Virus record (IMG/VR): IMGVR_UViG_3300045988_110853 | Coordinates: 68,077 to 132,076 of that record | DNA length: 64,000 bases | DNA from: a virus | Reading direction: 5' to 3' (one strand) | In this document: piece after piece, positions 8,329 through 34,700 of the stretch | Position numbering within the stretch: position 1 is the stretch's first letter | How the letters are laid out: each line of letters starts with the position of its first letter | Notes under the pieces: generated by a model | Databases searched by the model: none | What the model was told of the DNA's origin: nothing | What the model saw: the letters and a program-made list of their open reading frames with translations, nothing else | Made by a program: the position numbers and the translations under genes

Positions 8329-8329
8329 T

Positions 8330-9692: not shown

Positions 9693-9722
9693 GGCATATG
9701 CTCCCCTCTTTGAGCGAGTGGG

Positions 9723-11936: not shown

Positions 11937-11960
11937 ATAAATATAGACTGGAGGTAAAAA

Positions 11961-16004: not shown

Positions 16005-16361
16005 ATGCGTGCTTCAAGAGGAGAAATTAAAATTGAAGAAATCTTAGAAGAAGCAGGACTACCTTTTAAAATGGAATATATTTTTCCAGATTTAAAAAGC
16101 CCAAGCGGGCGTCCACTTCGTTTTGATTTTGTTATATTTGATGATGATGGAAAAATTGATTTCATTATTGAGTATTAGGGAAAATAGCATTATGAAGCCA
16201 GTTCTAAATTTGGCGGAAAACGCGGTTTATACCAGTAGCAATATAATGATAATCAAAAAAGACGTTTTTGCGCTTTACATGATTTTAGATTAATAGAGAT
16301 TCCATATACCGACGAAAACCTTATTTCTTATGATTATATAATGAAATTAGCAGGTTATTAA
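16005..16361 (+). CDS. DUF559/Vsr-like (restriction-endonuclease-fold) nuclease, 118 aa, 4 in-frame TAG. A homing-endonuclease-like insert between the terminase and portal genes.
   Basis: A GGAGGGTGG ribosome-binding site precedes it. The motif LRFDFVIFDDDGKIDFIIEYQGKQHY resembles the DUF559 pattern ...DF.....VE.DG..H. It ends in TAA. Confidence 0.5.
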
Positions 16362-16374: not shown

Positions 16375-18024
16375 TTGGATACGCAAGATCGTAATGATTA
16401 GATTCATGCTAAAGGTTTTGATATTTATAATAGTCGTTATGAATATAATTATAATGACACTATGGATTATGCCAATAGAAAAATAAAAGTTGGCACAAAA
16501 ACTTTAGATGATGCTATTTTAAAACTTGGTGATTATAGTAAGATTAGATACCCAGGTCAAACTCGTATTATCACGAAACCTGATGTGCTTCGCGCACTCG
16601 CGGAAAGAGATTTAAATGCTTTGCGATACATTTCTAATTTTTATTATGATATAAGTGGTGTATATCAACGAGTTTGTAATTATGTTGCTTTTTTATACCG
16701 CTATGATTGGTATATTGCAGCCGAAACTTATGATGATAATGTAAAAGAAGAAAAAGTTTTAAAAGATTTTTATAGAATGTTGAATTATTTTGATAATAGT
16801 TATATTAAAAAGATTTGCGGAGATATTGCTTTACAAGTCGTTAAAAATGGATGCTATTATGGATATATAGTTCCTTCAGAGAAAAATCTAATTTTACAAG
16901 AATTGCCAGTTAGATATTGTAGAACACGTTATAGTGTAAATAATACCCCAGTTGTCGAATTTGATATGCGATTTTTTGATACTTTTAGAGATATGAATTA
17001 CCGCTTAAAGGTATTAAAATTATTCCCAGAAGAATTTGCTAAAGGTTATGTTTTATATAAGCAAGGAAAACTTGCTTTAGAAGAAGCGGTTGGATGCTAG
17101 CATACTGGTAGTTGGTATGTTCTTGAGCCAGAAAATTGTATTAAATTTAATATTAATAATAGTGATGTTCCTATTTTTGTAAATTCTATTCCTACTATTA
17201 TGGATTTAGATGCAGCGCAAGATCTTGACCGCAAGAAACAAATGTAGAAGTTGCTTAAAATTTTAGTCCAAAAGCTCCCAATGGATAAAAATGGCGATTT
17301 GATATTTGATGTTGATGAAGCCAGAGATATCCATAATAATGCCGTTTAGATGTTATAGAGGGCTATTGGAGTAGATGTTTTAACTACATTTACTGATGTA
17401 GATTCTATTGATATGTCTGATAAGAATACTACTACAACGACAGATGATTTAGCTAAAGTTGAACGTAGTGTTTATAATTCATTAGGTATTTCATAGAATT
17501 TATTTAATACTGATGGTAATATGGCTTTAGAAAAATCAGTATTAAATGATGAATCTACAATAAGAAGTTTAATTTTATAGTTTAATATATTCTTTAATAG
17601 AATTATTGAAAAAAAGAGTAGTAATAAGAAATATAATTTTAGATTTTATTTATTAGAAACTACTCAAAATAATTATCAAACACTTTCTAAAATGTATAAA
17701 GAACAAGCGCAAATGGGACAATCAAAACTATTGTCTTAGATTGCTCTTGGACATTCATAGAGTTTTATTCTTAATGCAGCTCATTTTGAAAATGAGATTT
17801 TACATTTAAGTGAAATTATGATTCCTCCTCTTATGAGTTCTACTATGGGTAGTGAAGATATTTTGGGTTTAAAAGGTTCATCATCTAATAATAAAACTCA
17901 AAATAATTCAGGAAGTTCAGGTTCTGGAACTGCTAAAGCTTCTAATGGCGAGGCAGGACGTCCGGAGAAACCTGATGATTAGAAAAGTGAAAAAACTATT
18001 CAAAATAAAGAAGCAATGAAATAA
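16375..18024 (+). CDS. portal protein (549 aa; about 15 in-frame TAG)
   Basis: A TTG start lies 7 nt after AGGAGGTGG. The track ORF 16462..17100 and downstream fragments share one frame. The call rests on position after terL and on size. It ends in TAA. Confidence 0.6.
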
Positions 18025-18033: not shown

Positions 18034-19620
18034 ATGAAACATACAAGTATTAAATTAAATACACCTTGTGAGTTTATAAATATAACTCCTGTAAATCCTT
18101 TAATTTCTAAATGCCAAATTAAGGTTTGTTATGTAGATGATAAACCTAATCGTAACAAAAGCGTAATTACTAAAGATGTAGCGACTGAGATGGCTAATAG
18201 CCTTCCTGGCAGTCCTATTGTTGGCTTTTTTAATGAGAATGCTGAAGATTTTGAAGAACATAATAGGATAATTGAATTATCTAATGGCGAATTTAGAATG
18301 AGAGATAATACTCGCCCTTATGGTTTTGTTGATCTTGGAGCTAAAGTTTGGTTTTAGAAATTTTTGGATGATGGTGTTGCCGAACGTGAGTATTTAATGA
18401 CTGAAGGTTATTTGTGGACTGGTTAGTATCCTGAATGTAAACGTGTAGTTGATAAAGGGAATAATCATTCTATGGAGCTTGATGAAAAAACATTAAATGC
18501 TACGTGGGCAAAAGATAGTAATGGAAAGCCTTAGTTTTTTATTATAAATAAGGCAATTATTTCTAAACTTTGTATTTTGGGAGAAGAAAATGAACCTTGT
18601 TTCGAAGGCTCCCAAATCAATGTGAATTTTTCATTCGATGATGGTTTTAAGAACACTTTGTTCTCCATGATGAATGAACTTAAAGAATTTATGAAAGAAG
18701 GAGGACCCAAAGTGTTTACACAATATGCTGTTGAAATTGGCGATAGTTTGTGGAATTCTCTCTGGTCTTATGTTGAGACTAAATATCCTGGCGAGCCTAG
18801 TAGTTATTGTTCTATTTATCGCATTGAAGGCGTTTATGAAGATGCTGGACAAAAGTTTGCTATTCTTCAAAATAGACAAGACCAAAAATATTATCGCATG
18901 GACTTTTCTCTTACCGATGTAGAAGGCTTTGTTCCTTCTGATGCTTTAACTGAAGTAACTAAGTCTTATACTCCGGCAGCAGAGCCTCAGTTTGCTCTTG
19001 TTGATGTTGAAGCTTTTGAGACTGATTATGCTTCAAAGAAAAAGGCTGAGGAAGAGGACAAAAATAATAAATCTAATGGCCAAAACCCTGATAATAAATC
19101 AGAGGGCAATGATAATAAAAAGAACCCTGATAATGGGGAACCCTCTAATAAGTCTGATAAAGGCGACAATGGCGAGAATGATGATGATAAAAAGAAAAAG
19201 AAAAATTATTCTCTTGAGGACGTTGTTGAATATACTGAACTTAAAGCTCAGTATGATGAATTACAGACTAAATTCGCGGCTCTTGAAACTGAAAATAATA
19301 GCTTGAAAGAGCAAATTGCTCCACTTGCTGAATTTAAAAATGCCGCTGAGAAGAAAGATAAAGAAGATATGATTGCTAAATTCTATATGCTTTCTGATGA
19401 AGATAAGGCTGATGTTGTTGAAAATATTGATAAATATTCTCTTGATGATATTGAAGCTAAATTATCTGTTATTTGTGTTCGCAACAAGGTGAGTTTCGAC
19501 CTTGACGAAAATAATAAGCCCAATGGTGCTACTACTTTTAATTTGAACGATAATGGTTCAGAAGATGATGATATGCCCGCTTGGGTGAAGGCGGCTTTTG
19601 CTACCGCCAACAAAAATTAA
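18034..19620 (+). CDS. putative scaffolding protein with an N-terminal domain, a low-complexity K/D/N-rich linker and a C-terminal coiled coil (528 aa; 3 TAG)
   Basis: A TAAGGAGG ribosome-binding site precedes it. Track ORFs 18034 and 18577 share one frame. The coiled coil reads LEDVVEYTELKAQYDELQTKFAALETENNSLKEQI.... It sits between the portal and capsid genes. Confidence 0.5.
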
Positions 19621-19637: not shown

Positions 19638-20555
19638 ATGTTTAAAGACTTTTTGAATAAGAATCTTCCTATTAAGTCTCAGGCAAAGTATGTTGAGTTT
19701 GGTTACGGTCAGGTCGAGCCTAATCACCTTTCCGCACAAAGAAATGCTCAAATCTATGCTCAACTTCCTGCCAATAAAGACATTGAGATTCTTGAAAACG
19801 GTCAGTTTGTAAAGTATGACTATGCTGCTAATGGTAATGGTATTGGCGAAGTCAACTTCACTGGCGAAGGTGAATGGATGCTCGTTTATAACGAAATTAA
19901 GCTTTATCGTGATCATTATGATGGCAGTAAGCAGTGGGATTGCGAATTTGCTATGATTAAAGATGACTATCAGGCTCGTGTTTATAGCCCTTATGATTGG
20001 GAGCATACCGAGGTTGAATATGGTGGTCGTTTCTGGAACGGCGTTGATGAAAAGGGTCAAACCTATAAGTTAATCAATCAGACCGTTTCCGCAGATCAGG
20101 GTTTAAAGACTGTTACTATTGCTGGTCGTGTTTATGATGTTGATGAAACCGGCAAATTTACTTATGATGGTAATGAATATACTCTTGATAGTAATCATCA
20201 GGTTGCTAATGTTCCTGTAAAGTATTACTATGATAAGCTTCTTACTGATGTTCCTGATATGTATGAAATGAATTGGACTAATGATCCATATCATAAGTTA
20301 GGTATTTATCATGAGAAGTTCATGGAATCTGGCACTTCTATGGTTCCTCGTGTATTTAAGACCATGATTGGTGATCTTTATACTACTAATATGATTAATG
20401 AAGAGACTCTTGCTGTTGGAGATAAGCTTTCTCCTTCTGCTGCTACAAAGGGTATTCTTAGCAAAACTGGTGACGATTCAATGACCTGGTAGGTTGTTAA
20501 AGTTTATACTATGCCTGATGGTCAAAAGGGCGTCAAGGTAATGCGTATTAAGTAA
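19638..20555 (+). CDS. hypothetical head-module protein (305 aa; 1 TAG near the C-terminus)
   Basis: A TAAGGAGG ribosome-binding site precedes it. It ends in TAA at 20553-20555. Confidence 0.6.
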
Positions 20556-20572
20556 GAAAGGAGAAAAGGATA

Positions 20573-21679
20573 ATGTTAGATAAAAATAATTTAATTGCTC
20601 TTATGAAGCAAGTTGCTAAGGCTGATCCTTCTGCTCCTGTTGCTTATAGTTATGAGGGAAAAAATCTTAGTTATGAAGCCTTAAATGAAACTCTTCGTAA
20701 TGAAATGAATGAGTTAGCTGGTACTTATGCTCTTTATCGTGAAAATAAGAATCTTATTTTCTCTATGATTGAGCAGACTCTTGATGAGGTTCTTCCTAAG
20801 AAAGTTATTCAGCAATATGATCAGTTTGCTGAGGTTAAGACTTTCGCTCAGGGTGATAAGCCTATTTTCCGTCGTCCTCTTAATAATCGTGCTCGTGCTA
20901 AGTAGTTTGTAACTCGCGTTGGTCTTGCTGGTATTTATGAAGTCTTCAAGCTCGGACCTAAAGAGAATGAAGCCTTCGAGGTACGTACTAGCGCTATCGG
21001 CGGAGCTGCTCAGATTGGCTTCGAAGAGTTCCTTGATGGTCGTGTTGATTTCGGTGAAGTAACCAAGATCATCATGGATGGTATGGATGAACTTATTTAT
21101 AAAGAAGTCGCTGCTGCTCTTAGATCTTCTATCAATCAGCTTCCTCCTGCTAACCGCGTTGCGGCTGCCGGATTTGATGAAGCTGCTATGGATCGTTTGA
21201 TTACCATTGCTTCTGCTTATGGTACTCCTACTATTTATTGTACTTATGAGTTCGCTGTTAAGATGATTCCTCATGAGGCTTGGAGATATACTGAAGCTAT
21301 GAAGAATGAGCTTTGGAATAATGGTCGTCTTGCTACCTATAAGGGCACTAAGGTTATTATTCTTGAGCAGGGCTTTGAAGATGAAACCAATACTCGTAAG
21401 GTTATTGATCCTGGTTATGCTTGGGTTATTCCTACGGGCGCTGATGGTAAGCCTGTAAAGATTGCTTTCGAAGGTGGCACTATTGTTGACGAGTTCAATA
21501 ATTATGATCGTTCTCGTGAGATTCAGGTTTACAAGAAGGTTGGCGTAGTTTGTATGCTTGCTAACAACATCTGTGCTTATGTTGATACTTCACTTCTTGG
21601 TCAGATGTATACTTGGAATTATGATGGAGTCACTGGTAAGGTTATCACTTATGATGGCCGTCTTGATGGCACTGTTTAA
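20573..21679 (+). CDS. major capsid protein, presumed HK97 fold (368 aa; only 1 TAG)
   Basis: An AAAGGAGAAAAGG ribosome-binding site precedes it. Track ORFs 20573 and 21074 share one frame. The call rests on size and position. A strong terminator hairpin follows at 21695-21745. Confidence 0.6.
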
Positions 21680-21694
21680 TTTAATATAAATTAT

Positions 21695-21745
21695 TCCATG
21701 GGGAGAAGGGATTAAACTCCCTCTCCCCATATTTTTGTTTTATGA
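21695..21745 (+). terminator. strong hairpin GGGGAGAAGGGA..TCCCTCTCCCC plus a T-run after the capsid gene
   Basis: Read directly. Confidence 0.7.
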
Positions 21746-21765
21746 GTAAAAGGAGAAATTGAATA

Positions 21766-22359
21766 ATGATTAATAATGAAGATATTTATAATGTAAAAAA
21801 TAGAAGCACTAGTGTAGTTGTTTATACTATTCCTGATACTAATTTGCGCCGTGAATTTGCGCCCGGTGAGACTAAGCGCATTCCATTTGGTGAATTAGAG
21901 AAGTTGACTTATCAAGCGGGTGGCCGCGAATTGATTGCTAATTTTTTACAGATTTTAGAGCCAGAAGTAACTCATACTCTTAACGTTCATACTGAACCTG
22001 AATATAATATGTCAGAGCAGCAAGTTGCTGATTTAATTCTTAATGGCTCATTAGATGCTTTTTTAGACGCTCTTGATTTTGCTCCTATTGGAATTATTGA
22101 TTTAATCAAGAATTTGTCTGTTAGCCTTCCTATTACTGATATTAATAAGCGTAGAGCTTTGAAGGAAAAAACTGGGTTTGATGTTGATAAAGCTATTGCT
22201 AATGATATCGCTAGTAAAGAAGAAGATACTATTGTAGAGAAAGAACCTGCGGCTAAGCGTCGTGTAGTAAGAGAAGAACCTGTTACTCAAGGTCGTCGCA
22301 CAAGCGGTTCTGGATATAAAGTAATTAATAAAACCGAGGAAACTTCCTCCAAGAAATAA
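21766..22359 (+). CDS. hypothetical head protein (197 aa; no TAG)
   Basis: An AAAGGAGA ribosome-binding site precedes it. It is an intact ORF ending in TAA. Confidence 0.6.
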   Translation: MINNEDIYNVKNRSTSVVVYTIPDTNLRREFAPGETKRIPFGELEKLTYQAGGRELIANFLQILEPEVTHTLNVHTEPEYNMSEQQVADLILNGSLDAFLDALDFAPIGIIDLIKNLSVSLPITDINKRRALKEKTGFDVDKAIANDIASKEEDTIVEKEPAAKRRVVREEPVTQGRRTSGSGYKVINKTEETSSKK

Positions 22360-22378
22360 TTTATAGGAGGGCGATTAA

Positions 22379-22951
22379 GTGGGAACATTATTCTCAACTG
22401 TTTATAATCGCTTTCTTAACAAGGTTACTGATGATATGTATCTGGAGTTAACTCCCGAAGATACTTTAAGAGATTTATAGAATCTTATAATAGATGCTAT
22501 CCCTGGATTTGAATTTCCACGAAAAAATCTTTTAGATTATAATTTAGATGTTGCTACTATTAATGAATCTGATGCTACGCCTGATGATTTCATTGTAGGA
22601 ACAGTATGGGGAGAGCTTCCAGAACCGGGTGAAGAACCTCAAGTTTTAGTTGATAGATCCAGTTTTAATTGTGATCTAACTGAAGAAGAAATTAATATTC
22701 TAGCTATTTTAATGATGTGTGGTTGGACGCAAAGACAAGTCACTTCAATTGAGAACACTCGAATGAAATATAGTGGCTCTGATTTTAAATTTACTTCTTA
22801 GGCAAATCATTTATCTAAATTATTAAATTTACTAGGTGAATGCCAAAGATAGTCTCACCATATGTAGCGTTTATATAAACGTAGACGCTTAAATGACAAA
22901 GGTGAGTATGAATCTAATTGGGATGTATTTAAAAGTCGGTATGATTACTAA
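22379..22951 (+). CDS. putative head-tail connector/adaptor protein (190 aa; 4 TAG)
   Basis: A GTG start lies 8 nt after GGAGGG. It ends in TAA. The call rests on position only. Confidence 0.45.
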
Positions 22952-23249
22952 ATATAATTTTGATATTCCAGTAGAAAGTATAAAGGTCAATTGTTTGCGC
23001 TTAACCAACCAATTATGGAAATTAATTCCAATGCGCGAAAACAATGAAGATTGGCATAAATAGTTAGAAACTGTTATAAATGAAATTGTGGGGTTTAGTG
23101 TGATTTTTAGCGCTGAACCCCTTTATTTATAGCTATTAAACAAACTTGAGGGATTATAGAATCAAGATACTGATTTTAATTTTTATCGTAAGACTGTTTT
23201 TGAAACAATTAGTCTTTTATAGGAGATAAATTATGGCATCAGGGTTTGA
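22941..23249 (+). CDS. hypothetical small structural protein (102 aa; 4 TAG)
   Basis: The ATG overlaps the end of the previous gene. A frame of 103 codons free of TAA and TGA in AT-rich DNA is unlikely by chance. It ends in TGA and overlaps the next start. Confidence 0.4.
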
Positions 23250-24297
23250 TTATAGTAGTAAGCAACCTTTTAGATTACAACAAGGTCGCTTGGGAATTTA
23301 TGATAAACCACCCTTTGAAGGTAGCCCTGTTGAAGGCGTTAATTATACAGCGGTTCGGCTCGGTCAAATGGGCGGAAACCGCCAACAAGAACGTATGATT
23401 TTGTCTAAGCGTAGAAGTTTAGATAGAGCAGTATGGAATTCATACCAAGCCGCGGAAATTATTAAATAGGATGCGGAATATAAAAAACCTATTAGATGTT
23501 TGATTAATCCTAATAAATTAAAATAGGATTATGATGATAAGATTTTGTCTGTTGGAAATGAATATTAGTTTAAGCCAGGAGATATTTTTGAATGGTGTGG
23601 AACTAATACTTATTGGATTTGTTATCTTTAGGATTTGACTGAATTAGCTTATTTTAGAGGAGATATTAGAAAATGCTCTTATAAAATAAATTGGGTAGAT
23701 GAGGGAGAGAAAAAGTCTACTTATGCAGCAATTCGCGGTCCTGTAGAAACGAAAATTAATTATATTCAAAAACATGAAATTAGCGTAGATAATCCTAATT
23801 ATTCATTAAATATTTTATTGCCTAAAAATAAAGATACTTTAAGTTATTTTAGACGTTATACTAAATTCTATTTAGATAGTTAGGATGAGGGAGACAATTT
23901 AATTTGTTGGCGCGTTGAAGCTGTAGATTCCATAAGTATGCCTGGTATTTTAGAAGTCAATGCGACTGAATATTATATTAATGAGTAGGAAGATAATTTA
24001 GATGATAAGACTGTTGGTTCTTTAATTGCGGAACCGATTGATCCAAATCCTACAACAACTGATATTATAGGGGAAACGTTTATTTTTCCAAAGAAAACTT
24101 ATACTTATTATTTTGATGGTGAAGTTGTTTTAGAATGGAAAATAAAAAATAATAAAAAGTTGCCGGTTTCTTTAAAAATTATTAAAGAAGCAAAAAAACC
24201 AACAGTCGAAATAAGTTGGACTTCTGGATATAGTGGATAGTTCGATTTACTATATGGAGATTATAAAAAAACGATAATTGTTCAATCATTGTTTTAA
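23233..24297 (+). CDS. hypothetical structural protein (354 aa; 7 TAG)
   Basis: A TAGGAGATAAATT ribosome-binding site precedes it. Track ORFs 23233 and 23635 share one frame. It ends in TAA. Confidence 0.55.
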
Positions 24298-24312
24298 GGA
24301 GAAAAAGGTGTT

Positions 24313-24894
24313 ATGAAGATTGATGGAGTAAAAATTCCTAAATCCAGTTTCTTATCTATGGAAAAGGATTTAGAAATTGTCGTAAATCATTTATGTAAAA
24401 ATGAAAGATTAAAACGTTTATTGTATTATACTACCCCAGATGCTATAGACAAGCCAAATCTGGATGATGAACAAATGATTTAGTTATTTAAGAAAAATAT
24501 TAAATTAATTCCTAAATTATACGTTGATGGTAGTGTTTTAAATTATGTCGTAATTAGTTTTGATAATTTTATTCCTAATGATACAAATCCAGAATTTAGA
24601 GATAATATTATTGAATTCGATATAGTTTGTCATTATGATTAGTGGCATTTAAAAGATTATTAGTTACGTCCTTATCGCATTGCTGCGGAAATAGATAGTA
24701 TGATAGATAAAACACATTTAACAGGTATTGGAAAATTAGAATTTCTTGGTGGTAACCAAATTATTTTAACTGATGAATACGCTGGTTTATGTCTTATGTA
24801 TACTGCTATTCATGGAGAAGAAGATAAGAAATTTATGCCAAATCCCAATGATGAAGAAAGATTTTTAAAAGACTTTTAGGATAGAACTAAATAA
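24313..24894 (+). CDS. hypothetical neck/tail-completion protein (193 aa; 4 TAG)
   Basis: An AAGGAGAAAAAGG ribosome-binding site precedes it. Its TAA overlaps the next ATG (TAATG). Confidence 0.5.
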
Positions 24895-25619
24895 TGGATT
24901 TACGTTTAGGCTTAATGTGCGGAATTGATTTACCAATACCAGAACTTTAGGCTACAATTCATTAGCCAAAGATAAAAGAGATTGCTTTTGTTGGTGAAAA
25001 AGATTTCTTCCTTGGGGTTCAATGTCTTTGTATTGATAAAAATATAATAGCCAATTAGGGCGAAAGTCTTTTAGTTAATACGAATAATTTTTAGATATTT
25101 ATGACAATGATGAAAGAAAAAGAGATGGCTGAAAAAAAAGATTCAGTTATAAATGTTTTTTCTCTTATATTTCCAAAATATAAAACTTTATTTACTCCAA
25201 GATCTATCATTTTACAAAGTGATACTTAGATAATGATTGATGATTCAAATTTTGAAATTCTTTAGGAATATTTAAAGGAAATATTTTGTTTTAAATCTTC
25301 TGTGTCTCAAGAACTGGGTTTTAACCCTGCTAATGATACTGCTAAAAAAATTGCAGATAAATTAATGAGAGGTAGATAGAGAGTTGCTGAATTAAATGGT
25401 TCAGCTAATGTTAGTATATTTAGTTAGTATCTTTCAATGCTTACTGTAGGTTTAGATTCAATGTCTCTACAGGATTTAATGGATTTAACAATGTTCCAAC
25501 TTTTTGACCTTGTTGAAAGATATTAGCTTTATATTAATTGGGATATTGATATTCGGTCAAGGCTAGCGGGCGGAAAACCTGATGGCAAACCGGAGAACTG
25601 GATGAAAAATATCCATTAA
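24894..25619 (+). CDS. hypothetical protein (241 aa; 9 TAG)
   Basis: Start is coupled to the upstream stop. It ends in TAA at 25617-25619. It is very TAG-rich. Confidence 0.45.
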
Positions 25620-25643
25620 ATTTATTAAGGAGGAAAATAACCT

Positions 25644-26642
25644 ATGAAATTTGGTGTTCGCGAAATTTGCGATGTCGTTTTAAAGGCTAAGGCAACTCAG
25701 AAGGTTGGTAATAAAATCTTCTATAGAAATGAGCCAGTTATTTATTTCGACACTTTGAAAACTTCCAGTATGGAAGGCGCTGCTACCACTGTATATGCAC
25801 AGGGAGGACGCGGTAATGCTCGTTTAGTAGCCTGGGAAGGTGAGCGTACTGTTACCTTTACAATGGAAGATGCTCTTATTTCTCCAGAAGGTTTCATGAT
25901 TCTTTCTGGTGCTGGTCTTGTTGAAGCAAGTGCTACTAGTACTATTAAACAGCATGTTACTGAAACTGTAGATAAATCACAAATTGATAGTACAACTACT
26001 GAAGGACAAGTTACTATTCGTGTTTCTAAAAAGCCCTATCTTCCAACAGACGAACAAGAGAATTTTGCTTATGTTATGTTTGTCAAAGATGGCGAAATTA
26101 TCACTGAGCCTTTTATTCCTGTCCATGAGGAGTTAACTGCTAAGAAAGATACTAACGGTAATGAATATTTTGAATTAACTCTTAAAACTCCACATGATGA
26201 TTATATTGCTGGCACAGGTAATTATACTTTTAATGAAAAGAATGGCCTTCCAGCAGCCGCGGCATATGATAGCGCTATTGTTGATTATTATACTGAAAAG
26301 GCTAGTGGCGCTCAACAGATTGAGATTACTGCTGATAAATTCGGTGGTAACTATTATCTTGAAGCCTCTACTTTATTCCGTGATCAAAATGGTGTTGATA
26401 TGCCTGCTGAATTTATTATTCCTAACTGCAAGATTCAGTCTAACTTCACCTTTACAATGGCTTCTTCTGGTGATCCTTCTACTTTCACCTTTACTATGGA
26501 TGCTTTCCCTGACTATACTCGTTTTGACCACAGTAAGAAAGTTCTTGCTGCAATTCAAATTATTGAGGAAGGCGGAGCTAGTGACCTCCATCGTACTATG
26601 ACTGCTCACGACGAGGCTCACAATGCTTCTTTCACTGACTGA
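25644..26642 (+). CDS. major tail (tube) protein (332 aa; no TAG)
   Basis: A TTAAGGAGG ribosome-binding site precedes it. It is an intact ORF ending in TGA. The call rests on position upstream of the chaperone-like gene and the tape measure. A terminator follows at 26826-26866. Confidence 0.55.
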   Translation: MKFGVREICDVVLKAKATQKVGNKIFYRNEPVIYFDTLKTSSMEGAATTVYAQGGRGNARLVAWEGERTVTFTMEDALISPEGFMILSGAGLVEASATSTIKQHVTETVDKSQIDSTTTEGQVTIRVSKKPYLPTDEQENFAYVMFVKDGEIITEPFIPVHEELTAKKDTNGNEYFELTLKTPHDDYIAGTGNYTFNEKNGLPAAAAYDSAIVDYYTEKASGAQQIEITADKFGGNYYLEASTLFRDQNGVDMPAEFIIPNCKIQSNFTFTMASSGDPSTFTFTMDAFPDYTRFDHSKKVLAAIQIIEEGGASDLHRTMTAHDEAHNASFTD

Positions 26643-26816
26643 TGATTATTAAAGGTAAACGTTGGAACATCCAAAAGAAAACTGAGGAAGTAAAAAACAA
26701 CAATACCAAGAAAGAGAAAAAAGCTGTTAAATCTATCAAGGTTCCTGAAGAACCTGTGATTTCTGAAGAAGAAATTGATGAGGTCAGCAAATTCTTTAAT
26801 TTAGATAAAGAATAAT
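26643..26816 (+). CDS. possible small lysine-rich ORF (57 aa) just after the tail-protein stop
   Basis: An ATG abuts the TGA of the upstream gene. There is no ribosome-binding site. It could be a frameshift extension or a small gene. Confidence 0.2.
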
Positions 26817-26825
26817 TTTATGGGA

Positions 26826-26866
26826 GAGAATAGAAATATTCTCTCCCATTTTTTTTATTTAGAGAG
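26826..26866 (+). terminator. hairpin GGGAGAGAATA..TATTCTCTCCC plus a T-run after the major tail protein
   Basis: Read directly. Confidence 0.7.
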
Positions 26867-26880
26867 AAAGGAGAGATAAT

Positions 26881-27987
26881 ATGAATTCATTATAGAGAAG
26901 TATTAAGGCCAGTCCAAGAGAAATGAATACAGAAGATTTTTTAAAGAAATCTTATGAATTTACAAAAAGAAGTATGAGTTAGAAATTAAGAGCAAGAGAT
27001 ACTTCTGAAAAACAAGCTAAAAAATTAGAAGAATTCTTTCAAAGTATTCAAAATAGATAGCTTGGAAATCCTATCGAAAATATCCAAATGAGTGAATTAT
27101 TAGATGCTTTAGAATAGATTAATCCTTAGCTTTTTAATTCAATGAAATATTTATTTACTACGCCAGATAACTATGGAGATTCTAATGATGCGCATGGTAA
27201 ATATTTTGAAGGAGTTATTGCGGAAGCGGTTGCCACTGCGGAGAATTATTTTGCTGGTAATAAAACTATGACTATAAGTGGAAGTAGTAAAAAGGCTGGA
27301 ACCGCTTCTGTTAACCTTATAGATTTAGCAAAGAATTTAGATGAAGATACAAAAAGTCTAATGAATGATATTTATTAGAAAACTGCCCAAGAAATGAAAA
27401 AAGATAGTGAAGCTGCATCTTCTACAATAAAAGGAGTTTCTGGCAAAGCGGATATTATAGGAATTTAGTAGAATTATACAATATAGAAAACTAGTCATTT
27501 AGAATTAGATGAAGAAATTTATGATGCTTTATTAAATGCTACTTTTACTGCGAAAAATTATATGTCTAACACTTAGATTGAATTAGGATCTACTAATCCT
27601 TTTCGTGTTTTTATGACTATGATTCCTCTTGGAGGAGCTACAAGTAAAATTTAGAGATATTACCGTATGTTGGCTTGTAAATAGAAGCACTTTCCTGATA
27701 AGCATCCTGATGCACCAAAGTATTTTTATAGATTAAGAGCTATTTATGAATTAACTGGTGGAAAATCTAATTATACTAATACTGTATTAAATAAGCTAAT
27801 AGGTGGAAATTATACTAAATTTTTAGTTTTAAATTTATAGGGATATATAAGAGTTATTCCTACTTAGAGTGTCATAAAAGAGCTTATTGACAATATTGAT
27901 GATGATTAGTTTAATAAAGATATAGATTGGCAAAAGGCTTTATATGGACGTATTAGGATTAATCAAAATAAGTTTAGTGAAATTTAA
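26881..27987 (+). CDS. hypothetical protein (368 aa; about 17 in-frame TAG, the highest density in the window)
   Basis: A GAGAAAGGAGAG ribosome-binding site precedes it. The track ORF 27142..27378 is an internal fragment. It ends in TAA at 27985-27987. Confidence 0.5.
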
Positions 27988-27989
27988 AA

Positions 27990-28018
27990 TTGACTAAATA
28001 GAAAATTTTTTGTATAAT
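27990..28018 (+). promoter_or_regulatory. internal promoter TTGACT-N17-TATAAT upstream of the chaperone-like gene
   Basis: Read directly. Confidence 0.5.
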
Positions 28019-28045
28019 ATAATAAAGAGTAAAAGGAGGCTAATT

Positions 28046-28579
28046 ATGGCTAAAATTTCATATACTAAATTAGGAATTGGCAAGGAAGAATTGAATAAAG
28101 TTCAGACTGTAGAATATAATGATCAAACCATTGAAGTAAAGCAATATCTTCCAGTTGCAGAAAAGAGTGAATTAATTACTCGTGTATTAAATAATTCTGT
28201 AGATGAAGATAATGGATATTATAATCTTTTAAAGATGGATATGCATCTTGCACTTGAGATTGTTTATGCTTATAGCAATATTAATTTTACAGAAAAGCAA
28301 AAAGAGGATTCAGCGAAGCTTTATGATATGCTTAATGCTTCAAAGGTGCTTAATCTTATTATTGGTCTTATTCCAGAGGGGGAGTTTTATTATTTAAATA
28401 AGACTGTCCATGAAATGGCTAATAATATTGTGGCTTATCGCAATTCCGCGATGGGAATTATGGAGCGCATTACTACTGATTATAGCAATTTAAATTTTGA
28501 TGCTAGCACAATTCAGAAAGAGCTTGCCGATCCTAATAATATGACTTTATTGAAAGATATTCTCACTAAATTGGGCTAA
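28046..28579 (+). CDS. putative tail assembly chaperone (177 aa; no TAG)
   Basis: Its own promoter TTGACT-N17-TATAAT lies at 27990-28018 with an AAAGGAGG ribosome-binding site. The track start at 28010 is probably too far upstream. A terminator follows at 28621-28665. Confidence 0.45.
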   Translation: MAKISYTKLGIGKEELNKVQTVEYNDQTIEVKQYLPVAEKSELITRVLNNSVDEDNGYYNLLKMDMHLALEIVYAYSNINFTEKQKEDSAKLYDMLNASKVLNLIIGLIPEGEFYYLNKTVHEMANNIVAYRNSAMGIMERITTDYSNLNFDASTIQKELADPNNMTLLKDILTKLG

Positions 28580-28620: not shown

Positions 28621-28665
28621 TAATGGGGATAAGAGTATTTTATTACTCTTATCCCCTTTTTATTT
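28621..28665 (+). terminator. hairpin GGGGATAAGAGTA..TACTCTTATCCCC plus a T-run
   Basis: Read directly. Confidence 0.65.
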
Positions 28666-28708: not shown

Positions 28709-31700
28709 ATGGCTAAACAATTAAATAGTTATCAAGTTAATTTACAATTTAATGCAAATACTACATAGGCGAAAACGCAATTGCAAGATTTGCAAACGAC
28801 CCTTGATGCTATTATAAAGGAATCTGTGGCGGGAGTCTCTAAAGGAGATTTTAATTTAACTAAAAGATTAAACGAAGCGCAGATAGCGGCATCAAAACTA
28901 CAAACCATTTTAGCTCAAACTACTAATGTAGAAACGGGAAAAATGGATTTAACAAGATTTTCTCAATCTTTAAAATAGAGTAATTTAGATTTAAAAAAGA
29001 TATAGAATAGTTTACTTGAGCTTGGGCCTTCTGGACAAAAAGCTTTTATGTCTTTAGCTCAATCTATTGTTGAAGCTGATGTTCCATTAAAAAGAACAAA
29101 TTTATTAGTTTCTGAATTATGGACAACTTTAAAGAATACAGCTCGTTGGTAGATTTCTTCTAGTGCATTACATGCATTTATGGGTACTATTCAATCTGCT
29201 TATGGATATGCCAAAGATTTAAATGAATCTTTAAATGATATTCGTATTGTTACTGGACACAATATTGAATATATGGATAAATTTGCTGAAAGAGCAAATA
29301 AAGCGGCGAAAGCGTTAAATGCTACTACATTAGATTACACTAATGCTTCTTTAATTTATTATCAATAGGGTTTAAGTGATGAAGAAGTAGAAAAAAGAAC
29401 AGATATTACTGTTAAAATGGCTAATGTCATTAAACAAAATGCTGATATTGTTTCTGATCAATTGACTGCGATTTGGAATAATTTCTATGATGGCTCTGAC
29501 TCTCTAGAACATTATGCTGATGCGATGGTGCGCTTAGGTGCAGATACCGCGTCTAGCTCTGATGAAATTGCTGGCGGTCTTGAAAAATTTGCGGCAGTTG
29601 CTAATACAATTGGTTTAAGCTTTGATAATGCAGCAGCTGCATTGGCTACTATTACTGCTACAACTCGTCAAAGTGAAGATGTAGTAGGTACTTCTTTAAA
29701 GACTATTTTTGCTCGTATTCAAGGTTTAAAATTAGGCGAGACTTTAGAAGATGGCACTACTTTAAATCAGTACTCACAAGCTCTTGCAGCTGTTGGAGTT
29801 AATATTAAAGACTCCAATGGACAATTAAAGGATATGGATATCATTCTTGATGATTTGGGGCACAAATGGTCAACAATTAGTAAAGATCAACAGGTAGCTT
29901 TAGCTCAGCAAGTAGCTGGTATCCGTTAGTACAACCAATTAATTGCTTTAATGGATAATTTTGATTTTTATCAAGAAAATATTCAAAGAGCAAAAGAAGC
30001 AGATGGTTCTTTACAAGAACAAGCTGATATTTATGCTGAAAGCTGGGAAGCTGCTCGTGATCGTGTGCGTGCAGCAGCCGAAAGCATTTATGATGATTTA
30101 GTTGATGATAAATTCTTTATTAGTTTATCTGATGCAATTGCTGGAGCTTTAGACGCTATTGATAAATTAATTGATTCTATAGGAGGTCTCCCAGGAGTAA
30201 TTGCCGCTCTTGGAATGATATTTACTAAAGTGTTTAAAGTTCAAATGGGCGAGGGCGTTAATAATTTAGTTTTTGGCCTTTAGTCTTTAGTTGGACTTAC
30301 AAAAAAGAGTGCAGTTTCTCTTAAACAAGAAGCTTATAATCGAGCTTCTAATATGGCTTTTGATACTGGTACTGAAGTTGGAGATAGATAGGGAGAATCA
30401 TTAAAATAGACTTTAGACTTAAAGAAAAGAATATATGATATATCTGAAAATATTACAAAAGAGGAAAAGCAATAGCTTGAAGGGTTAATTGAAATTAATC
30501 GAGCTTATAATGAACAGGCTATAAAAGCAGCTCAAAAAAAAGATTAGGCTAGTGAGAATCTTCAAAATACTCGCATGGATCTTAGAGCGCGCATAAGAAG
30601 AAATTCTGCCACTGGAGAAGTAGAGAAAAATTTAAATACTTTTGGAAATGTTCAATAGCAAATGAGTGGAATTATTAAAACTGGTTTGCGAGGAAGTAAA
30701 GCTTTAGACGGACTTAATAAAGCATTAAAAGAAGGAAGTCCATTAGGAAAAGCTTTTGAGGGTAGAATGAATACAATTCAGTAGGCTTTAATTAAAGTAG
30801 ATAGATCTGAAGCAGCTGAATCTATTGGAAATTTTGTTAAAGAGTTAAAGGACGGAACTATAACAGTAGATTAGTTCTTGAAAAAAGTAAATAATGTTGT
30901 CACTAAAGAAAATTTAATGGCTGATGCTACATTTAAAGCAGCAACTGTTCTTGAGGATGACTTTGGTAAAAAAGTTAAAATTAACGGTGAGGATTGTCAA
31001 AAGCTTGCTGAAGATATGACTGAAGTTATTGTAACAACAGATAAATTAAATACTACTAATAAGCAAGTTGCTGGGTCTTATGAAAAAATAAAAGCTGCAA
31101 TTGAAAATTATAAAAATGCTACTGGAGATTTAGGGTAGAAATTAATTTCTATGGTTAATGGTTTTTCTTCATTGGCTATGGGATTGGCTTCCATTAAGAG
31201 TATTTTTGATACTTTATCTGATGAAGATATGTCATTCTTTGATAAGCTTTTGTCAGTTAGTATGTCTTTAGGCATGGGTATTTCTATGACCGTTTCTGGT
31301 TTATCTACTATGGCTAAAGCTTATAAAGAATTGGCAGAAGCTAAAATTTTAGATAATATAAAGACTTCGCTTAATACGGCTATTACAGAGATTAATAATG
31401 TGGTAAAAGCTTAGGCAGCCGCCAGAACAGGAGCTCAAACAGAAGCTACCGGTAGATAGGTATTGGCTGAAAGCAAACTTACAAAAAATATAATATTGTA
31501 GAATGCCGCTTGGTTAGTCCGTAATAAACAGATGTCCGCAACAGCAGCTCTTGGATTAAGTTTAGCTGGTACTATATTAGTTGTAGTTGCAGCTGCAGCA
31601 GCTTTAGTACTTATATCTAAAGCAGTTTATAATTCCATTCATAAAGAAGAAATAGCAGCTGAAGCAGCAGCTAAAGCGGCTTCAGATCTTGGTAATGCTT

Positions 31701-34700
31701 ATGATGAGTGTCGTGAAAAGTATCAGCAAATGATTGATGAGTTTAATGAATACAAAGATGCCATAGATGCTTTGGATAATTTAACTAAAGGAACTCAAGA
31801 ATATCGTGATGCTTTAGAGGAAGCTAATCAAAAGGCTTTAGAATTAATCCAAAATAATCCTGATAAATTTAATAAAGATGATTATTATTGGGATGATAAT
31901 AAATTAGTTATTAAAGATACAGCTATGTCTCGTGTAGCTGAAACCAGTAGACAAGAGACTGTAGATTTATAGGCTACTTCTGCTATGGCTAATGCCAATA
32001 ATGCTCAAGCATAGGCAAATTTATAGAAAAAAAATCTTGTCGATACTGTCACTGGTTCTTTACGCAACACAACTGGCATAGATAAAACTATTGACGCTTA
32101 TTTAAATAGTGATAGAGTTGCTGTTGATAAGGAAGACTTAAAAGATATCCTTAATCTTGATAATGGTATAGACGATAAGGCTTTAATTAATGTCCTTTGG
32201 CGCAATATTGATGCTTTAAATGAGTTAAGAAATACCATGGATGGGGTTGAAACCTCTTTTGATCTTGCTAGTAAAACCGCAGCAAGAGCGCAATGGTCTG
32301 GTTCTGGTAAAGAAAATACTAAAGCTGGAAAAATGGCGCTTGAAGGTGGCGGAAGATTATATAATAATCTTTATGCTGAGGGAGAAAATACTGTTAAAGG
32401 TTATTCATTAGACACTAATTGGGCTGCCTATGAAAAAATGAATAATTTGAATTCTCTAAAAGGATATAAACGTTCTATTAAAAGCGATAAAGTTGAATAT
32501 AGTTATTATGATGAGAATGGTGAAAAGATAACTTAGGAAATCAGTAAAGAAGCTATTCAAATCGCGGCCGCAACCCAATATGCTAATGATAGGATTGGAG
32601 AAGCTTTAGATAGTTTATATCAAAATATTGCTAAAGCTAACAAAGATGGTCTTGATAGCGTAGGGAAATATTTATCAACAGAAAATTTTGATAATATGAC
32701 AAAAGGCGAGCTTAAACAATTTTAGGGATTAACTGATGATTAGTTAAGGGAATATGGAATTGATAAACAAGCTATCGAAGAAGCTAAAAAAGTTGTATTT
32801 GATGAAATTGATGGTCTTAATGAAGCTATGAGTGATTAGATCACGGTTGGAGTAAATAAGACTTTAAAAGAAAATATTTAGAATTTCGGCTCTGAAGGTA
32901 AAGATGCCTATATTAGTGCTATCAATCAAATTGGTGAATCTATTGATTGGAATGCTTTATCACCAGAATCTTAGGCTGAGGCTTGGAATAAGATTTCTAA
33001 TATTAATTGGTTTGATTTCGATGCTCAACGCCAAGCTGAAAACTTAATTAAAGAAATGGGCGGAGATGTTTCTACTCTTGGAGATAACTGGGATAAAGCT
33101 TTTAGTTAGATGCGTAAAGCTGGAGATGTTGTTCCAGTATTAACTGATATTAAAGAGCGTCTTGATAAAATAGATAGTATTACTAAAGACATGAAAATCG
33201 GTAAGATTTTAGAAAAAGAAGATTATGATACTTTAGTAAATTATAATAGTGAATTGGCAAGATATTTTACTATTTTATCTGATGGATCTGCTGTTTTTGT
33301 AGGTGATCCTCTCGATTTCCAGTAGATGATTAAATCCACTAAGCAAGATGAATTAAGTAGAACTATAAATGGATATCAAAATGCTATTGATTAGTATTAT
33401 GCGGGAGCTGAAGAACTTAAAAAAGCGGGTGGATTAGATTAGATTCGAGAAGTTGGTTCTGAAAATGTTAATAGCCAATTAGCATTTTTAAAGACTTAGA
33501 ACTACGATGAAACATAGATTTCTGATTGGATTGGTAAGCTTGCTAATTCTAGAGGATAGGATATTGATACTTTAAAAGCTATTGCTGAAGCAGTTAATGA
33601 AGTTGGTGATTCTTTCTTATCTAGCAAAGATAGTATAGAACAATATACAGCAAGTAGTCAATAGGCTATGAATGAATTGGCAATGACCACCGAAACTGCT
33701 CAAGAAGCAGAAGAAATGCTTAAAAATGGTAGTATCAATGAAATGGCTTATAATATGAGTGCCATGCAGCGTATGTCTGGTGAAAAATGGGAAAATTTAG
33801 ATTCATCTGAAGTAAATAAATATGCAGATTCTTTAATGAAGACAGCTAAAAGTTCTAAACTATTAAGTGATGAACTTGTAAATAATAAAGAGGCCGCTGA
33901 AGATGTAGCTCTTTATACTATAAAAATGAATAATGGCGTAGAGAAATTGAAAAATGGTTTTAGTGGATGGGCTGATATATTAAAGAAATCTGATTCTGCT
34001 TCACAGGAATATTATGATGCAATGATTGATATTAAAGATGCCATGTCTGATGTACTTGGGGTTTCAGAAGAATTTTTAACTGATGAGTTTATTACTAAAA
34101 ATTTAACTGATATAGGTAAGGCGGCAGAAGGTGACGCTGATGCTATAGATCGTTTGGCAGCCGCGGCAAGTAAAGATATTCTTTTAAATGTTGATTTTGT
34201 TTAGGATAATAAGCAATTACAAGATGTTTTATTATCAATGCATGATAAATTAGCGGCAGAAATTCCAGATATAAAAATTGGTACAACTTTTGAAGGTCAA
34301 GATGATTTAGTTAGATAGGCTCAAAATATTATCGGCACAGCGAAAATGACCGCCGAATAGGCAAATGCTTATTTTAGTGCCATGGGCTTTGAAACTAAAT
34401 TTAAAGTTGAACCTCAAGAAGTTGAATAGAGAACTCCAATAGTACATACTAGATAGTCAATAGTTGACGCGGGATTTAAAGACGGAGTTCCTTATTGGGA
34501 AACAACAACAGAAACTTGGAATGACGGATATAGTATTCAAAAAGGTTATGTTGATGCTATTGCTATGGCGACCTCTCCTGATGGAACGAAAACTCCGATT
34601 ATTGAAAGTATGACTAGTAAGCCTACTGGAATTATGAATAATAGTTCAAAGACTAATAGAGGTACTACAGGCTCAAGCAAAGGTGGAGGAAGTAAAAATA

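What the first reader, a model, noticed from the sequence alone, without database searches (positions are those of the whole stretch)
19638..28579. Recoded-TAG density falls in the genes expected to be most highly expressed
TAG density varies sharply between neighbouring late genes. The major capsid protein has 1 TAG in 368 codons. The protein encoded by 21766-22359 has none in 197 codons. The major tail protein has none in 332 codons. The chaperone-like gene has none in 177 codons. By contrast, 26881-27987 has about 17 TAGs in 368 codons. The gene at 24894-25619 has 9 in 241. The tape measure has about 95 in 2972. The portal has about 15 in 549. This suggests TAG decoding is slow or conditional. 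If so, it may pace translation of low-copy virion components, or TAG may be selected against in high-copy structural proteins.
Basis: seen in the sequence. Interest (0 to 1): 0.7.

Follow-up and report, generated by a model that had tools for sequence, protein, structure and literature searches.

The report
Recoded TAG avoided in capsid, tail-tube genes
In this phage, which reads the stop codon TAG as glutamine, the major capsid, tail-tube and a few neighbouring genes almost never use TAG, apparently because selection on codon choice in the most heavily made proteins removes it, as it removes other poorly served codons.

Summary
The pattern is real. The window is a TAG-to-Gln recoded siphophage of about 195 kb, with a late block at 11961-63451. 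Five genes (19638-20555, capsid 20573-21679, 21766-22359, tail tube 25644-26642, 28046-28579) hold 2 TAG in 1379 codons. The other late genes hold 250 in 15266 (Fisher P=2e-7).

The pattern is conserved. In 30 dereplicated TAG-recoded relatives, the capsid gene, its upstream neighbour (19638-20555) and the tail-tube gene use TAG for 1-2% of Gln codons; most other genes use 25-57%. At conserved Gln sites, the three genes switch freely between CAA and CAG, yet TAG is 0.9% there against 36% elsewhere. The same genes carry a general high-expression codon bias. TAG is avoided as strongly as ATA.

TAG therefore behaves as a disfavoured synonymous codon, removed where expression is highest. The 'pacing of low-copy proteins' idea is unsupported: TAG sites are not conserved, and a gene with 60 TAGs requires near-complete readthrough. 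This is a new example of known translational selection, of moderate interest. No suppressor tRNA was found in the window; one occurs in a sister sub-clade.

The parts
19638..20555 (+). Gene directly upstream of the capsid gene, function unknown (phrog_35301). 1 TAG (20490) in 305 codons; Gln codons TAG/CAA/CAG = 1/5/8.
   Evidence: In 30 recoded lineages, 5 TAG in 426 Gln codons. It has the strongest codon-bias score together with the capsid gene. The AlphaFold model was too poor to assign a fold.
20573..21679 (+). Major capsid protein gene. 1 TAG (20903) in 368 codons; Gln codons 1/2/9.
   Evidence: phrog_4088. tblastn matches genes annotated as major capsid protein in Bacillus siphophages. 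5 TAG in 416 Gln codons across 30 recoded lineages, 26 of them with none. The window's TAG is a singleton at a CAG/CAA column.
21766..22359 (+). Unknown head-module gene. 0 TAG in 197 codons.
   Evidence: In relatives 16 TAG in 213 Gln codons (8%); 20 of 29 lineages have none.
22436..25619 (+). Five head-tail connector or unknown genes: 22436-22951, 22893-23249, 23233-24297, 24313-24894, 24894-25619. They hold 4, 4, 7, 4 and 9 TAG; TAG is 44-67% of their Gln codons and CAG is almost absent.
   Evidence: Pooled TAG/Gln in relatives is 0.33-0.52.
25644..26642 (+). Major tail (tail tube) protein gene. 0 TAG in 332 codons; Gln codons 0/6/5.
   Evidence: phrog_2729, virion structural protein. tblastn matches genes annotated as tail tube or major tail protein in Bacillus phages. 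4 TAG in 228 Gln codons across 23 recoded lineages.
26820..26849 (+). Terminator-like hairpin (13-bp stem followed by a T run) downstream of the tail-tube gene.
   Evidence: This is a consensus match only.
26881..27987 (+). Accessory gene of unknown function with the highest TAG density: 15 TAG in 368 codons; Gln codons 15/7/0.
   Evidence: No PHROG or Pfam match. Present in only some relatives.
28046..28579 (+). 0 TAG in 177 codons. It lies between a sigma-70-like promoter match (27990-28018) and a terminator-like hairpin (28625-28656).
   Evidence: TAG-freeness is not conserved: 23 TAG in 131 Gln codons (18%) in relatives.
28709..37627 (+). Tape measure protein gene. 60 in-frame TAG in 2972 codons; Gln codons 60/109/20.
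16462..18024 (+). Portal protein gene. 9 TAG in 520 codons; Gln codons 9/15/0.
   Evidence: phrog_2739, E=5e-82.
18034..19620 (+). phrog_3313 gene with a coiled-coil C-terminal part; possibly a scaffold, unproven. Intermediate class: 3 TAG in 528 codons.
   Evidence: TAG/Gln is 0.19 in relatives.
14253..15992 (+). Large terminase gene. 7 TAG in 579 codons. It contains the only near-fixed TAG column found: TAG in 25 of 28 recoded lineages.

Best explanation
Shown: the phage decodes TAG as glutamine, so TAG is a third synonymous Gln codon.

Inferred: in most late genes TAG drifts upward under AT-biased mutation, through CAG-to-TAG transitions, until it is about as common as CAA. CAG nearly disappears from those genes.

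In the genes whose products are made in the largest amounts, selection on translation efficiency and accuracy removes TAG. These are the capsid protein, the tail-tube protein and the gene just upstream of the capsid gene; 21766-22359, 28046-28579 and 18034-19620 are affected more weakly. The same selection removes ATA, AGA, TTA and other poorly served codons.

The likely cost (inferred) has two sources. TAG is read only by a phage suppressor tRNA(CUA), which must compete with host release factor 1. Each TAG therefore carries a small chance of premature termination and draws on a limited tRNA. That cost scales with the number of copies translated. The TAG-rich state of the other genes is the near-neutral default, not a designed brake.
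For: 1. Window statistics. TAG density is heterogeneous (P~1e-7). The five low genes hold 2/1379 against 250/15266.

2. Trade-off with CAG. The low-TAG genes use CAG for 26 of 47 Gln codons; the rest use it for 41 of 667.

3. Conservation. In 30 dereplicated recoded lineages, TAG/Gln is 0.01 (capsid), 0.01 (19638-20555) and 0.02 (tail tube). Most other genes show 0.25-0.57; three are intermediate at 0.08-0.19. phAss-1, with only 50% capsid identity, has 0 TAG and 15 CAG in its capsid gene and 50 TAG in its tape measure gene.

4. Site level. All 23 conserved-Gln columns in the three core genes vary between CAA and CAG among lineages, yet TAG is 6 of 657 codons. In other genes 63 of 65 such columns carry TAG in some lineage, 603 of 1671 codons (Fisher P=2e-11).

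5. Specific to TAG. Lineages L042, L050 and L052 prefer CAA and AAA in these genes and still have 0-1 TAG per gene.

6. General bias in the same genes. GCT 0.76, CGT 0.65, CTT 0.57, CCT 0.74, ACT 0.75, ATA 0.00, AAG 0.63. Pooled over lineages, the core/other ratio is 0.04 for TAG, the same as for ATA.

7. Graded relationship. PC1 of codon usage without Gln codons against TAG/Gln gives rho=-0.72, P=4e-5. A CAI-like index, with its reference genes excluded, gives rho=-0.55, P=0.007.

8. Standard-code relatives already prefer CAG in these genes: 0.42-0.71 against 0.10-0.35 elsewhere.

9. A sister sub-clade carries tRNA(CUA) inside a phage tRNA array.

10. Precedents. Phage head and tail genes are biased toward host-preferred codons (PMC2266997). 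Reassigned stop codons are used less in highly expressed ciliate genes (PMC10553269).
Against: - Expression level is inferred from annotation and codon bias, not measured.
- The host is unknown, so 'host-preferred codons' is untested.
- Three of the low-TAG genes have no assigned function.
- No suppressor tRNA was found in the window or in about 93 kb of the nearest relatives' contigs. The decoding agent in this particular genome is therefore assumed from relatives.
- Shine-Dalgarno strength, an independent proxy for translation initiation, does not correlate with TAG use.
- The base after TAG shows only a weak bias (A 0.44 against 0.35 after CAA, P=0.06), so competition with release factor has no direct support.
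- The lineages are related, so pooled counts are not independent events.
Confidence: 0.75

Rival explanations
1. Programmed throttle. TAG is decoded slowly or incompletely, and its density is set by selection to hold down or pace synthesis of low-copy virion parts, fixing virion stoichiometry.
For: TAG-rich genes are mostly low-copy or accessory ones: 26881-27987 at 41 per 1000 codons, 24894-25619 at 37, tape measure at 20. Borges et al. proposed recoded stops as an extreme form of codon-based regulation of late genes.
Against: - TAG sites are not conserved. 262 of 414 TAG columns are in under 10% of lineages, and one column reaches 80%.
- TAG counts per ortholog vary widely between lineages, for example terminase 1-13.
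- There is no ordering by copy number among low-copy proteins.
- TAG:CAA near 1:1 in the richest genes is what AT-biased drift through CAG would give.
- Proteins with 60 and 40 TAGs need roughly 96-99% or better readthrough per codon to be made at all (inference).
Confidence: 0.08
2. Timing. The TAG-free genes are translated before the suppressor accumulates, or must be producible independently of the code switch.
For: 28046-28579 has its own sigma-70-like promoter match and a terminator-like hairpin, and the tail-tube gene is followed by a strong hairpin. Early genes are essentially TAG-free: about 2 in-frame TAG in 2684 codons.
Against: - The capsid gene and 19638-20555 sit 17 nt from their upstream neighbours, in one co-directional string with TAG-containing genes: portal 9, 18034-19620 3, 22436-22951 4.
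- Capsid assembly needs the TAG-containing portal at the same time.
- The phage sigma-factor gene itself has 2 TAGs here and 0-7 in relatives. Late transcription may therefore already depend on suppression (inference).
- The low-TAG genes' codon usage differs from that of early genes.
Confidence: 0.1
3. History, not selection. The capsid and tail-tube genes were recently acquired from, or are regularly exchanged with, standard-code relatives and have not had time to gain TAG.
For: Standard-code lineages are interleaved with recoded ones at 76-87% capsid identity. The region 24313-28579 is mosaic among close relatives.
Against: - Divergence at fourfold sites between the window and relatives is 0.28-0.50 in the capsid gene and 0.39-0.53 in the tail-tube gene. 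It is no lower toward standard-code lineages.
- Every conserved Gln column in these genes has switched between CAA and CAG among recoded lineages, so there was ample time for CAG-to-TAG.
Confidence: 0.03
4. Composition only. Higher GC, CTAG avoidance or a different mutation spectrum in these genes lowers TAG without any selection on translation.
For: The low-TAG genes have higher GC (0.31-0.40 against a typical ~0.29) and GC3. CTAG is strongly under-represented, 44 observed against 162 expected, and C precedes in-frame TAG in 1% of cases against 11% for CAA.
Against: - The bias is structured by codon family, not a GC shift. T-ending fourfold codons, CGT over AGA, CTT over TTA and ATA at zero are all favoured patterns, while ATT and GAT remain the majority.
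- Lineages whose core genes prefer AAA and CAA still exclude TAG.
- CTAG avoidance can remove only the minority of sites that follow a C-ending codon, not produce a 25-40-fold drop.
Confidence: 0.04

Closest known systems
Stop-codon recoding in gut phages, code 15 (Borges et al. 2021 preprint, 10.1101/2021.08.26.457843; proteomic validation PMC9523058)
   Same: TAG read as Gln. Early genes are TAG-free and the structural block is recoded. Close standard-code relatives exist. Suppressor tRNA(CUA) is present in relatives. That paper states that selection enriches or depletes recoded stops in particular gene families.
   Different: The paper reports enrichment in lysis genes and depletion in integrases, and its preprint text does not mention capsid genes. 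Here the contrast lies inside the late block and follows expression-type codon bias. The holin is not enriched: 2 TAG in 136 codons, 14.7 per 1000 against a mean of 15.1.
Translational selection on phage head and tail genes (Lucks et al. 2008, PMC2266997)
   Same: The most abundant virion proteins carry the strongest codon bias in the genome.
   Different: That work concerns the 61 standard sense codons and known hosts. Here the avoided codon is a reassigned stop read by a phage tRNA, and the host is unknown.
Reduced use of reassigned stop codons in highly expressed ciliate genes (PMC10553269)
   Same: Reassigned stop codons are widely used but under-represented in highly expressed genes. The authors suggest translational inefficiency or stronger selection for canonical codons.
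   Different: That is a cellular eukaryote with a fully reassigned code and a modified release factor. In the phage, the host release factor that reads TAG is presumably still present, so the cost may come from competing termination.
phAss-1 and the proposed Phassvirus group (Babkin et al. 2023, PMC10607447; OQ749652)
   Same: A related large siphophage group (capsid 50% identical) that uses TAG as Gln and has three Sup-CTA tRNAs. Its terminase and tape measure genes contain TAG, and its capsid gene has none.
   Different: Different genus-level group with GC 44.5% and a rearranged late block. The paper does not link TAG use to expression.
Avoidance of ATA and AGA rare codons in highly expressed bacterial genes (general knowledge)
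   Same: TAG shows the same core/other depletion ratio as ATA, 0.04.
   Different: ATA and AGA are ordinary sense codons read by scarce tRNAs. TAG additionally risks termination.

Membership tests
Code-15 (TAG to Gln) recoded phage | Reading through in-frame TAG restores long, homologous ORFs. | tested here: met
   ORF coverage is 58.3 kb against 23.5 kb. The restored terminase, portal and tape measure match PHROG families end to end.
Code-15 (TAG to Gln) recoded phage | TAG aligns with glutamine in standard-code homologues. | tested here: met
   Q is the commonest residue in standard-code relatives at TAG columns: 70% in the core genes, and about 30% elsewhere, where E and K follow at 10-15%.
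Code-15 (TAG to Gln) recoded phage | The genome encodes a suppressor tRNA with anticodon CUA. | tested here: inconclusive
   None found in the window, in flanks, or in about 93 kb of the nearest relatives. Found in sister sub-clade contigs and in phAss-1. About 100 kb of this roughly 195-kb genome type was not examined.
Code-15 (TAG to Gln) recoded phage | Early genes are compatible with the standard code. | tested here: met
   26 early minus-strand genes contain 2 in-frame TAG in 2684 codons, and all end in TAA or TGA.
Translational selection (expression-linked codon bias) | The same genes show coherent bias in many amino-acid families. | tested here: met
   PC1 of codon usage without Gln explains 39% of variance and places the capsid gene, 19638-20555 and the tail-tube gene at one extreme.
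Translational selection (expression-linked codon bias) | The bias is maintained across lineages despite synonymous turnover. | tested here: met
Translational selection (expression-linked codon bias) | The biased genes are the most highly expressed. | not testable with these tools
   Inferred only from capsid and tail-tube annotation. No expression data are available.
Translational selection (expression-linked codon bias) | Preferred codons match abundant tRNAs of the host. | not testable with these tools
   The host is unknown. The related phAss-1 is predicted to infect Clostridia. The sister sub-clade's phage tRNAs mostly read A-ending codons, most of which the core genes under-use.
Programmed recoding used as a regulatory device (site-specific readthrough or throttle) | The recoded codons sit at conserved positions. 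| tested here: not met
   Only 1 of 414 TAG-bearing columns has TAG in at least 80% of recoded lineages.
Programmed recoding used as a regulatory device (site-specific readthrough or throttle) | Preferential recoding of lysis genes, as in the Borges model. | tested here: not met
   The holin 63041-63451 has 2 TAG in 12 Gln codons, an average density. No endolysin was identified in the window.

The most novel reading that the evidence does not exclude
TAG carries a real per-codon cost from competition with the host release factor. Keeping capsid and tail-tube genes TAG-free then has two effects. It insulates bulk virion protein synthesis from the supply of suppressor tRNA. It also leaves these genes functional under either code, which could ease the repeated switches between standard and recoded code seen in this clade. 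TAG share of Gln codons would then serve as a sequence-only read-out of relative expression in uncultured code-15 phages.
Probability: 0.15. Interest if true: 0.6.

Novelty: new member of a known kind. Interest (0 to 1): 0.4.

Why it matters
It shows that a reassigned stop codon in a phage behaves as an ordinary but costly synonymous codon: common where selection is weak and purged where expression is highest.

This qualifies the view that recoded stops are mainly a timing switch for late genes. Within the late block, most of the variation is explained by drift plus translational selection.

There are practical consequences. In this clade, capsid and tail-tube genes stay intact under standard-code gene calling, while their neighbours fragment. 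TAG/Gln could also serve as a proxy for expression in uncultured code-15 phages.

Tried and rejected
- Shine-Dalgarno duplex energy as an independent expression proxy: no correlation with TAG use (rho 0.2-0.3, not significant).
- Base after TAG as a sign of release-factor competition: weak (P=0.06). Position of TAG along genes: not clearly non-uniform (KS P=0.06).
- NNC/NNY index alone: no correlation with TAG/Gln. CGY/Arg does correlate with it, as do the PC1 and CAI-like indices.
- Function of 19638-20555: no Pfam hit. The AlphaFold model built from 32 homologues had pLDDT 47.8, too poor for a fold search.
- Capsid and tail-tube proteins: no PDB sequence match and no Pfam match. Their annotation rests on PHROGs and on annotated phage homologues.
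- Suppressor tRNA: none by ARAGORN in the window, in 10-kb flanks on both sides, around NrdD, or one further step to the left. No Rfam hit in 126 kb. Pattern scans found it only in the sister sub-clade.
- Literature: I found no statement on TAG depletion in capsid genes of code-15 phages. The published Nature Microbiology version of Borges et al. is not held, so I could not rule it out there.
- An apparent link between recoding and avoidance of A-ending codons in the core genes was dropped. It varies by lineage, and one standard-code lineage (L080) shows it too.

Full report
**What the window is.** The 64-kb window has 32.5% GC. Reading TAG as sense raises the span of ORFs of at least 150 codons from 23.5 to 58.3 kb. 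Reading TGA through does not have this effect. Small minus-strand genes at 1-11500 (GC about 41%) contain almost no in-frame TAG. A plus-strand late block runs from 11961 to 63451 (GC about 30%).

The late block encodes the following:
- a sigma factor;
- large terminase, 14253-15992;
- a homing endonuclease;
- portal, 16462-18024;
- a capsid-type protein, 20573-21679;
- a virion structural protein, 25644-26642;
- a 2972-codon tape measure protein;
- large distal tail proteins;
- a holin.

The capsid and tail-tube assignments rest on tblastn matches to genes annotated as major capsid protein and as tail tube or major tail protein in large Bacillus siphophages. The nearest named relative is the TAG-recoded phAss-1, with 50% capsid identity. 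IMG/VR holds many relatives on contigs of up to about 200 kb.

**Checking the observation.** Gene by gene, the low counts are exactly as stated:

| Gene | TAG / codons |
|---|---|
| capsid 20573-21679 | 1 / 368 |
| 21766-22359 | 0 / 197 |
| tail tube 25644-26642 | 0 / 332 |
| 28046-28579 | 0 / 177 |
| 24894-25619 | 9 / 241 |

Three high counts were overestimates. Gene 26881-27987 has 15-16 TAG, not ~17. The tape measure gene has 60, not ~95. The portal gene has 9-11, not ~15.

The heterogeneity is far beyond chance: G=83, df 30, P=8e-7 per codon, and G=87, P=2e-7 per Gln codon. The five low genes together hold 2 TAG in 1379 codons, against 250 in 15266 for the rest (Fisher P=2e-7).

The low-TAG genes use CAG for 26 of 47 Gln codons. 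The other late genes use it for 41 of 667, so TAG has taken the place of CAG there.

**Is it conserved?** Eighty loci around capsid homologues (76-100% identity) were fetched. Sixty are TAG-recoded and twenty use the standard code. The two kinds are interleaved on a neighbour-joining tree.

After dereplication there are 30 recoded and 9 standard-code lineages. Pooled over the recoded ones, TAG as a share of Gln codons is:

| Gene | TAG / Gln codons | Share |
|---|---|---|
| capsid | 5 / 416 (26 of 30 lineages have none) | 0.01 |
| 19638-20555 | 5 / 426 | 0.01 |
| tail tube | 4 / 228 | 0.02 |
| 21766-22359 | 16 / 213 | 0.08 |
| 28046-28579 | 23 / 131 | 0.18 |
| 18034-19620 | 101 / 526 | 0.19 |
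| every other gene | | 0.25-0.57 |

Only the first three genes form a robust TAG-free core. The distant phAss-1 repeats the pattern: 0 TAG and 15 CAG in its capsid gene, and 50 TAG in its tape measure gene.

**Selection or history?**
- In the three core genes, all 23 conserved-Gln alignment columns vary between CAA and CAG among recoded lineages. Synonymous change has therefore been extensive. Yet TAG accounts for only 6 of 657 codons there.
- In the other genes, 63 of 65 conserved-Gln columns carry TAG in some lineage, 603 of 1671 codons (Fisher P=2e-11).
- Fourfold-site divergence from the window is 0.28-0.53 in the capsid and tail-tube genes. It is no smaller toward standard-code lineages. 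This rules out recent import.
- Lineages L042, L050 and L052 prefer CAA and AAA in the core genes and still have 0-1 TAG per gene. The avoidance is therefore aimed at TAG itself and is not a by-product of a preference for CAG.
- The window's own two core-gene TAGs (20490 and 20903) are singletons at columns where other lineages have CAG or CAA.

**Link to expression-type codon bias.**
- The low-TAG genes have a distinct, strongly skewed codon usage: GCT 0.76, GGT 0.54, CGT 0.65, CTT 0.57, CCT 0.74, ACT 0.75, AAG 0.63, ATA 0.00.
- The other late genes favour AAA 0.81, AGA 0.49, TTA 0.65 and ATA 0.20.
- The GC-richer early genes differ from both.
- The first principal axis of codon usage, computed without Gln codons, explains 39% of variance and correlates with TAG/Gln (rho=-0.72, P=4e-5).
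- A CAI-like index referenced to the three core genes still correlates among the other 23 genes of at least 150 codons. Rho is -0.55 (P=0.007) against TAG/Gln and -0.64 (P=0.0009) against TAG per 1000 codons.
- Pooled over lineages, the core/other ratio for TAG is 0.04, identical to that of ATA.
- Standard-code relatives already prefer CAG in these genes: 0.42-0.71 against 0.10-0.35 elsewhere.

**How TAG is probably decoded.**
- No tRNA lies in the window, its flanks or about 93 kb of the nearest relatives' contigs. Rfam finds nothing either.
- Pattern scans located a tRNA(CUA) in contigs of a sister sub-clade with about 90% capsid identity. It sits in an array with tRNAs that mostly read A-ending codons: Lys-UUU, Gly-UCC, Leu-UAA, Thr-UGU, Val-UAC, Pro-UGG, Arg-UCU and Ile-UAU.
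- Most of those codons are under-used by the core genes.
- phAss-1 has three such suppressors.
- For this genome, a phage suppressor competing with host release factor 1 is an inference.

**Why the pacing idea fails.**
- TAG positions are mostly lineage-specific. 262 of 414 TAG-bearing columns carry TAG in under 10% of lineages. A single terminase column reaches 80%.
- Counts per ortholog vary several-fold between lineages.
- TAG share does not follow copy number among low-copy proteins.
- A gene with 60 TAGs yields 10% full-length product only if readthrough per codon is at least 0.96, and 50% only if it is at least 0.99 (arithmetic inference). So decoding late in infection must be efficient.
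- The TAG-rich state, with TAG:CAA near 1:1 to 2:1 in the richest genes, is what AT-biased drift through CAG would produce.
- At about 99% readthrough, a capsid gene with the average TAG share would lose a few percent of output and produce truncated subunits. That is a plausible target for selection in the most heavily translated genes (inference).

**Comparison with what is known.**
- Borges et al. describe recoding of late genes, enrichment in lysis genes and depletion in integrases. They state that selection enriches or depletes recoded stops by gene family. Their preprint does not mention capsid genes.
- Here the holin has an average TAG density.
- Lucks et al. showed that phage head and tail genes are biased toward host-preferred codons.
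- In a ciliate with reassigned UAA and UAG, the reassigned codons are used less in highly expressed genes.
- The phAss-1 paper notes TAG in terminase and tape measure genes without comment on the capsid gene.
- Cook et al. found the capsid gene identifiable under the standard code in 407 of the 475 code-15 genomes where it could be identified at all. This is compatible with capsid genes often being TAG-poor, but it is not a test.
- I found no explicit report of this pattern in phages. The published version of Borges et al. was not available.

**Verdict.** It is a further instance of a known principle applied to a reassigned stop codon. It is useful but not surprising to a specialist.

**Main weaknesses.**
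- There are no expression data.
- The host is unknown.
- The suppressor tRNA for this exact lineage was not located.
- Three low-TAG genes have no assigned function.
- Three late ORFs outside the finding (49242-49859, 49868-51520, 59623-61335) were counted from stop to stop, because no ATG start is evident near the ORF start.

Noticed in passing
window 1-11500 versus 11961-63451: The early minus-strand block has about 41% GC and GC3 0.48. The late plus-strand block has about 30% GC and GC3 0.18. This is an unusually large split within one phage genome.
   Followed up: partly
whole window: CTAG is strongly under-represented: 44 observed against 162 expected, and none in the first 11.5 kb (15.8 expected). 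In-frame TAG is preceded by C in 1% of cases, against 11% for CAA. This may reflect restriction-site or general CTAG avoidance, and it limits where TAG codons can arise.
   Followed up: partly
window 11908-13016: The phage sigma-factor gene (phrog_5767) follows a perfect TTGACA-17-TATAAT match at 11908-11936. It contains in-frame TAGs at 12303 and 12405, and 0-7 TAGs in relatives. Late transcription may itself depend on suppression.
   Followed up: partly
window 26809-28018: Gene 26881-27987 has the highest TAG density and no family match. It is present in only some close relatives. It sits between a terminator-like hairpin (26820-26849) and a promoter-like site (27990-28018), like an inserted accessory gene.
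   Followed up: partly
L001-L080: Twenty standard-code relatives form at least two clades nested among TAG-recoded lineages, at 76-87% capsid identity. This implies repeated gain or loss of recoding in the clade.
   Followed up: partly
L395 3853-13337; L278 1780-1853: Sister sub-clade contigs carry a tRNA array of 14 genes that includes tRNA(CUA), Ile-UAU and Arg-UCU. Most of these tRNAs read A-ending codons.
   Followed up: partly
L278 about 661-860: This sequence resembles tRNA-Gln(UUG) of phAss-1 at both ends, but is interrupted by roughly 130 nt at the anticodon loop. ARAGORN did not call it. It may be an intron or an insertion.
   Followed up: no
L167 17525-19846 (minus strand): The anaerobic ribonucleotide reductase gene, about 7-10 kb to the right of the window in relatives, has one in-frame TAG at codon 217 of 774. 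Recoding therefore extends to a minus-strand nucleotide-metabolism gene.
   Followed up: partly
window 14253-15992, alignment column 383 of the terminase: This is the only nearly fixed TAG found: TAG in 25 of 28 recoded lineages, with CAA or CAG in the other three.
   Followed up: no
window 49868-51520 and 59623-61335: Two further late genes outside the finding have a low TAG share (0.13 and 0.17 of Gln codons) and a relatively high codon-adaptation score. They may be additional abundant virion proteins. Their starts are uncertain.
   Followed up: no
L001-L080, core genes: The preferred codons of the capsid and tail-tube genes differ between lineages: AAA/Lys ranges from 0.00 to 1.00 and CAG/Gln from 0.15 to 0.92. 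This may reflect different hosts. TAG is excluded in all of them.
   Followed up: partly
window 16005-16361: A homing-endonuclease-like gene (phrog_9084 / phrog_559) sits between the terminase and portal genes and carries 3 in-frame TAGs.
   Followed up: no
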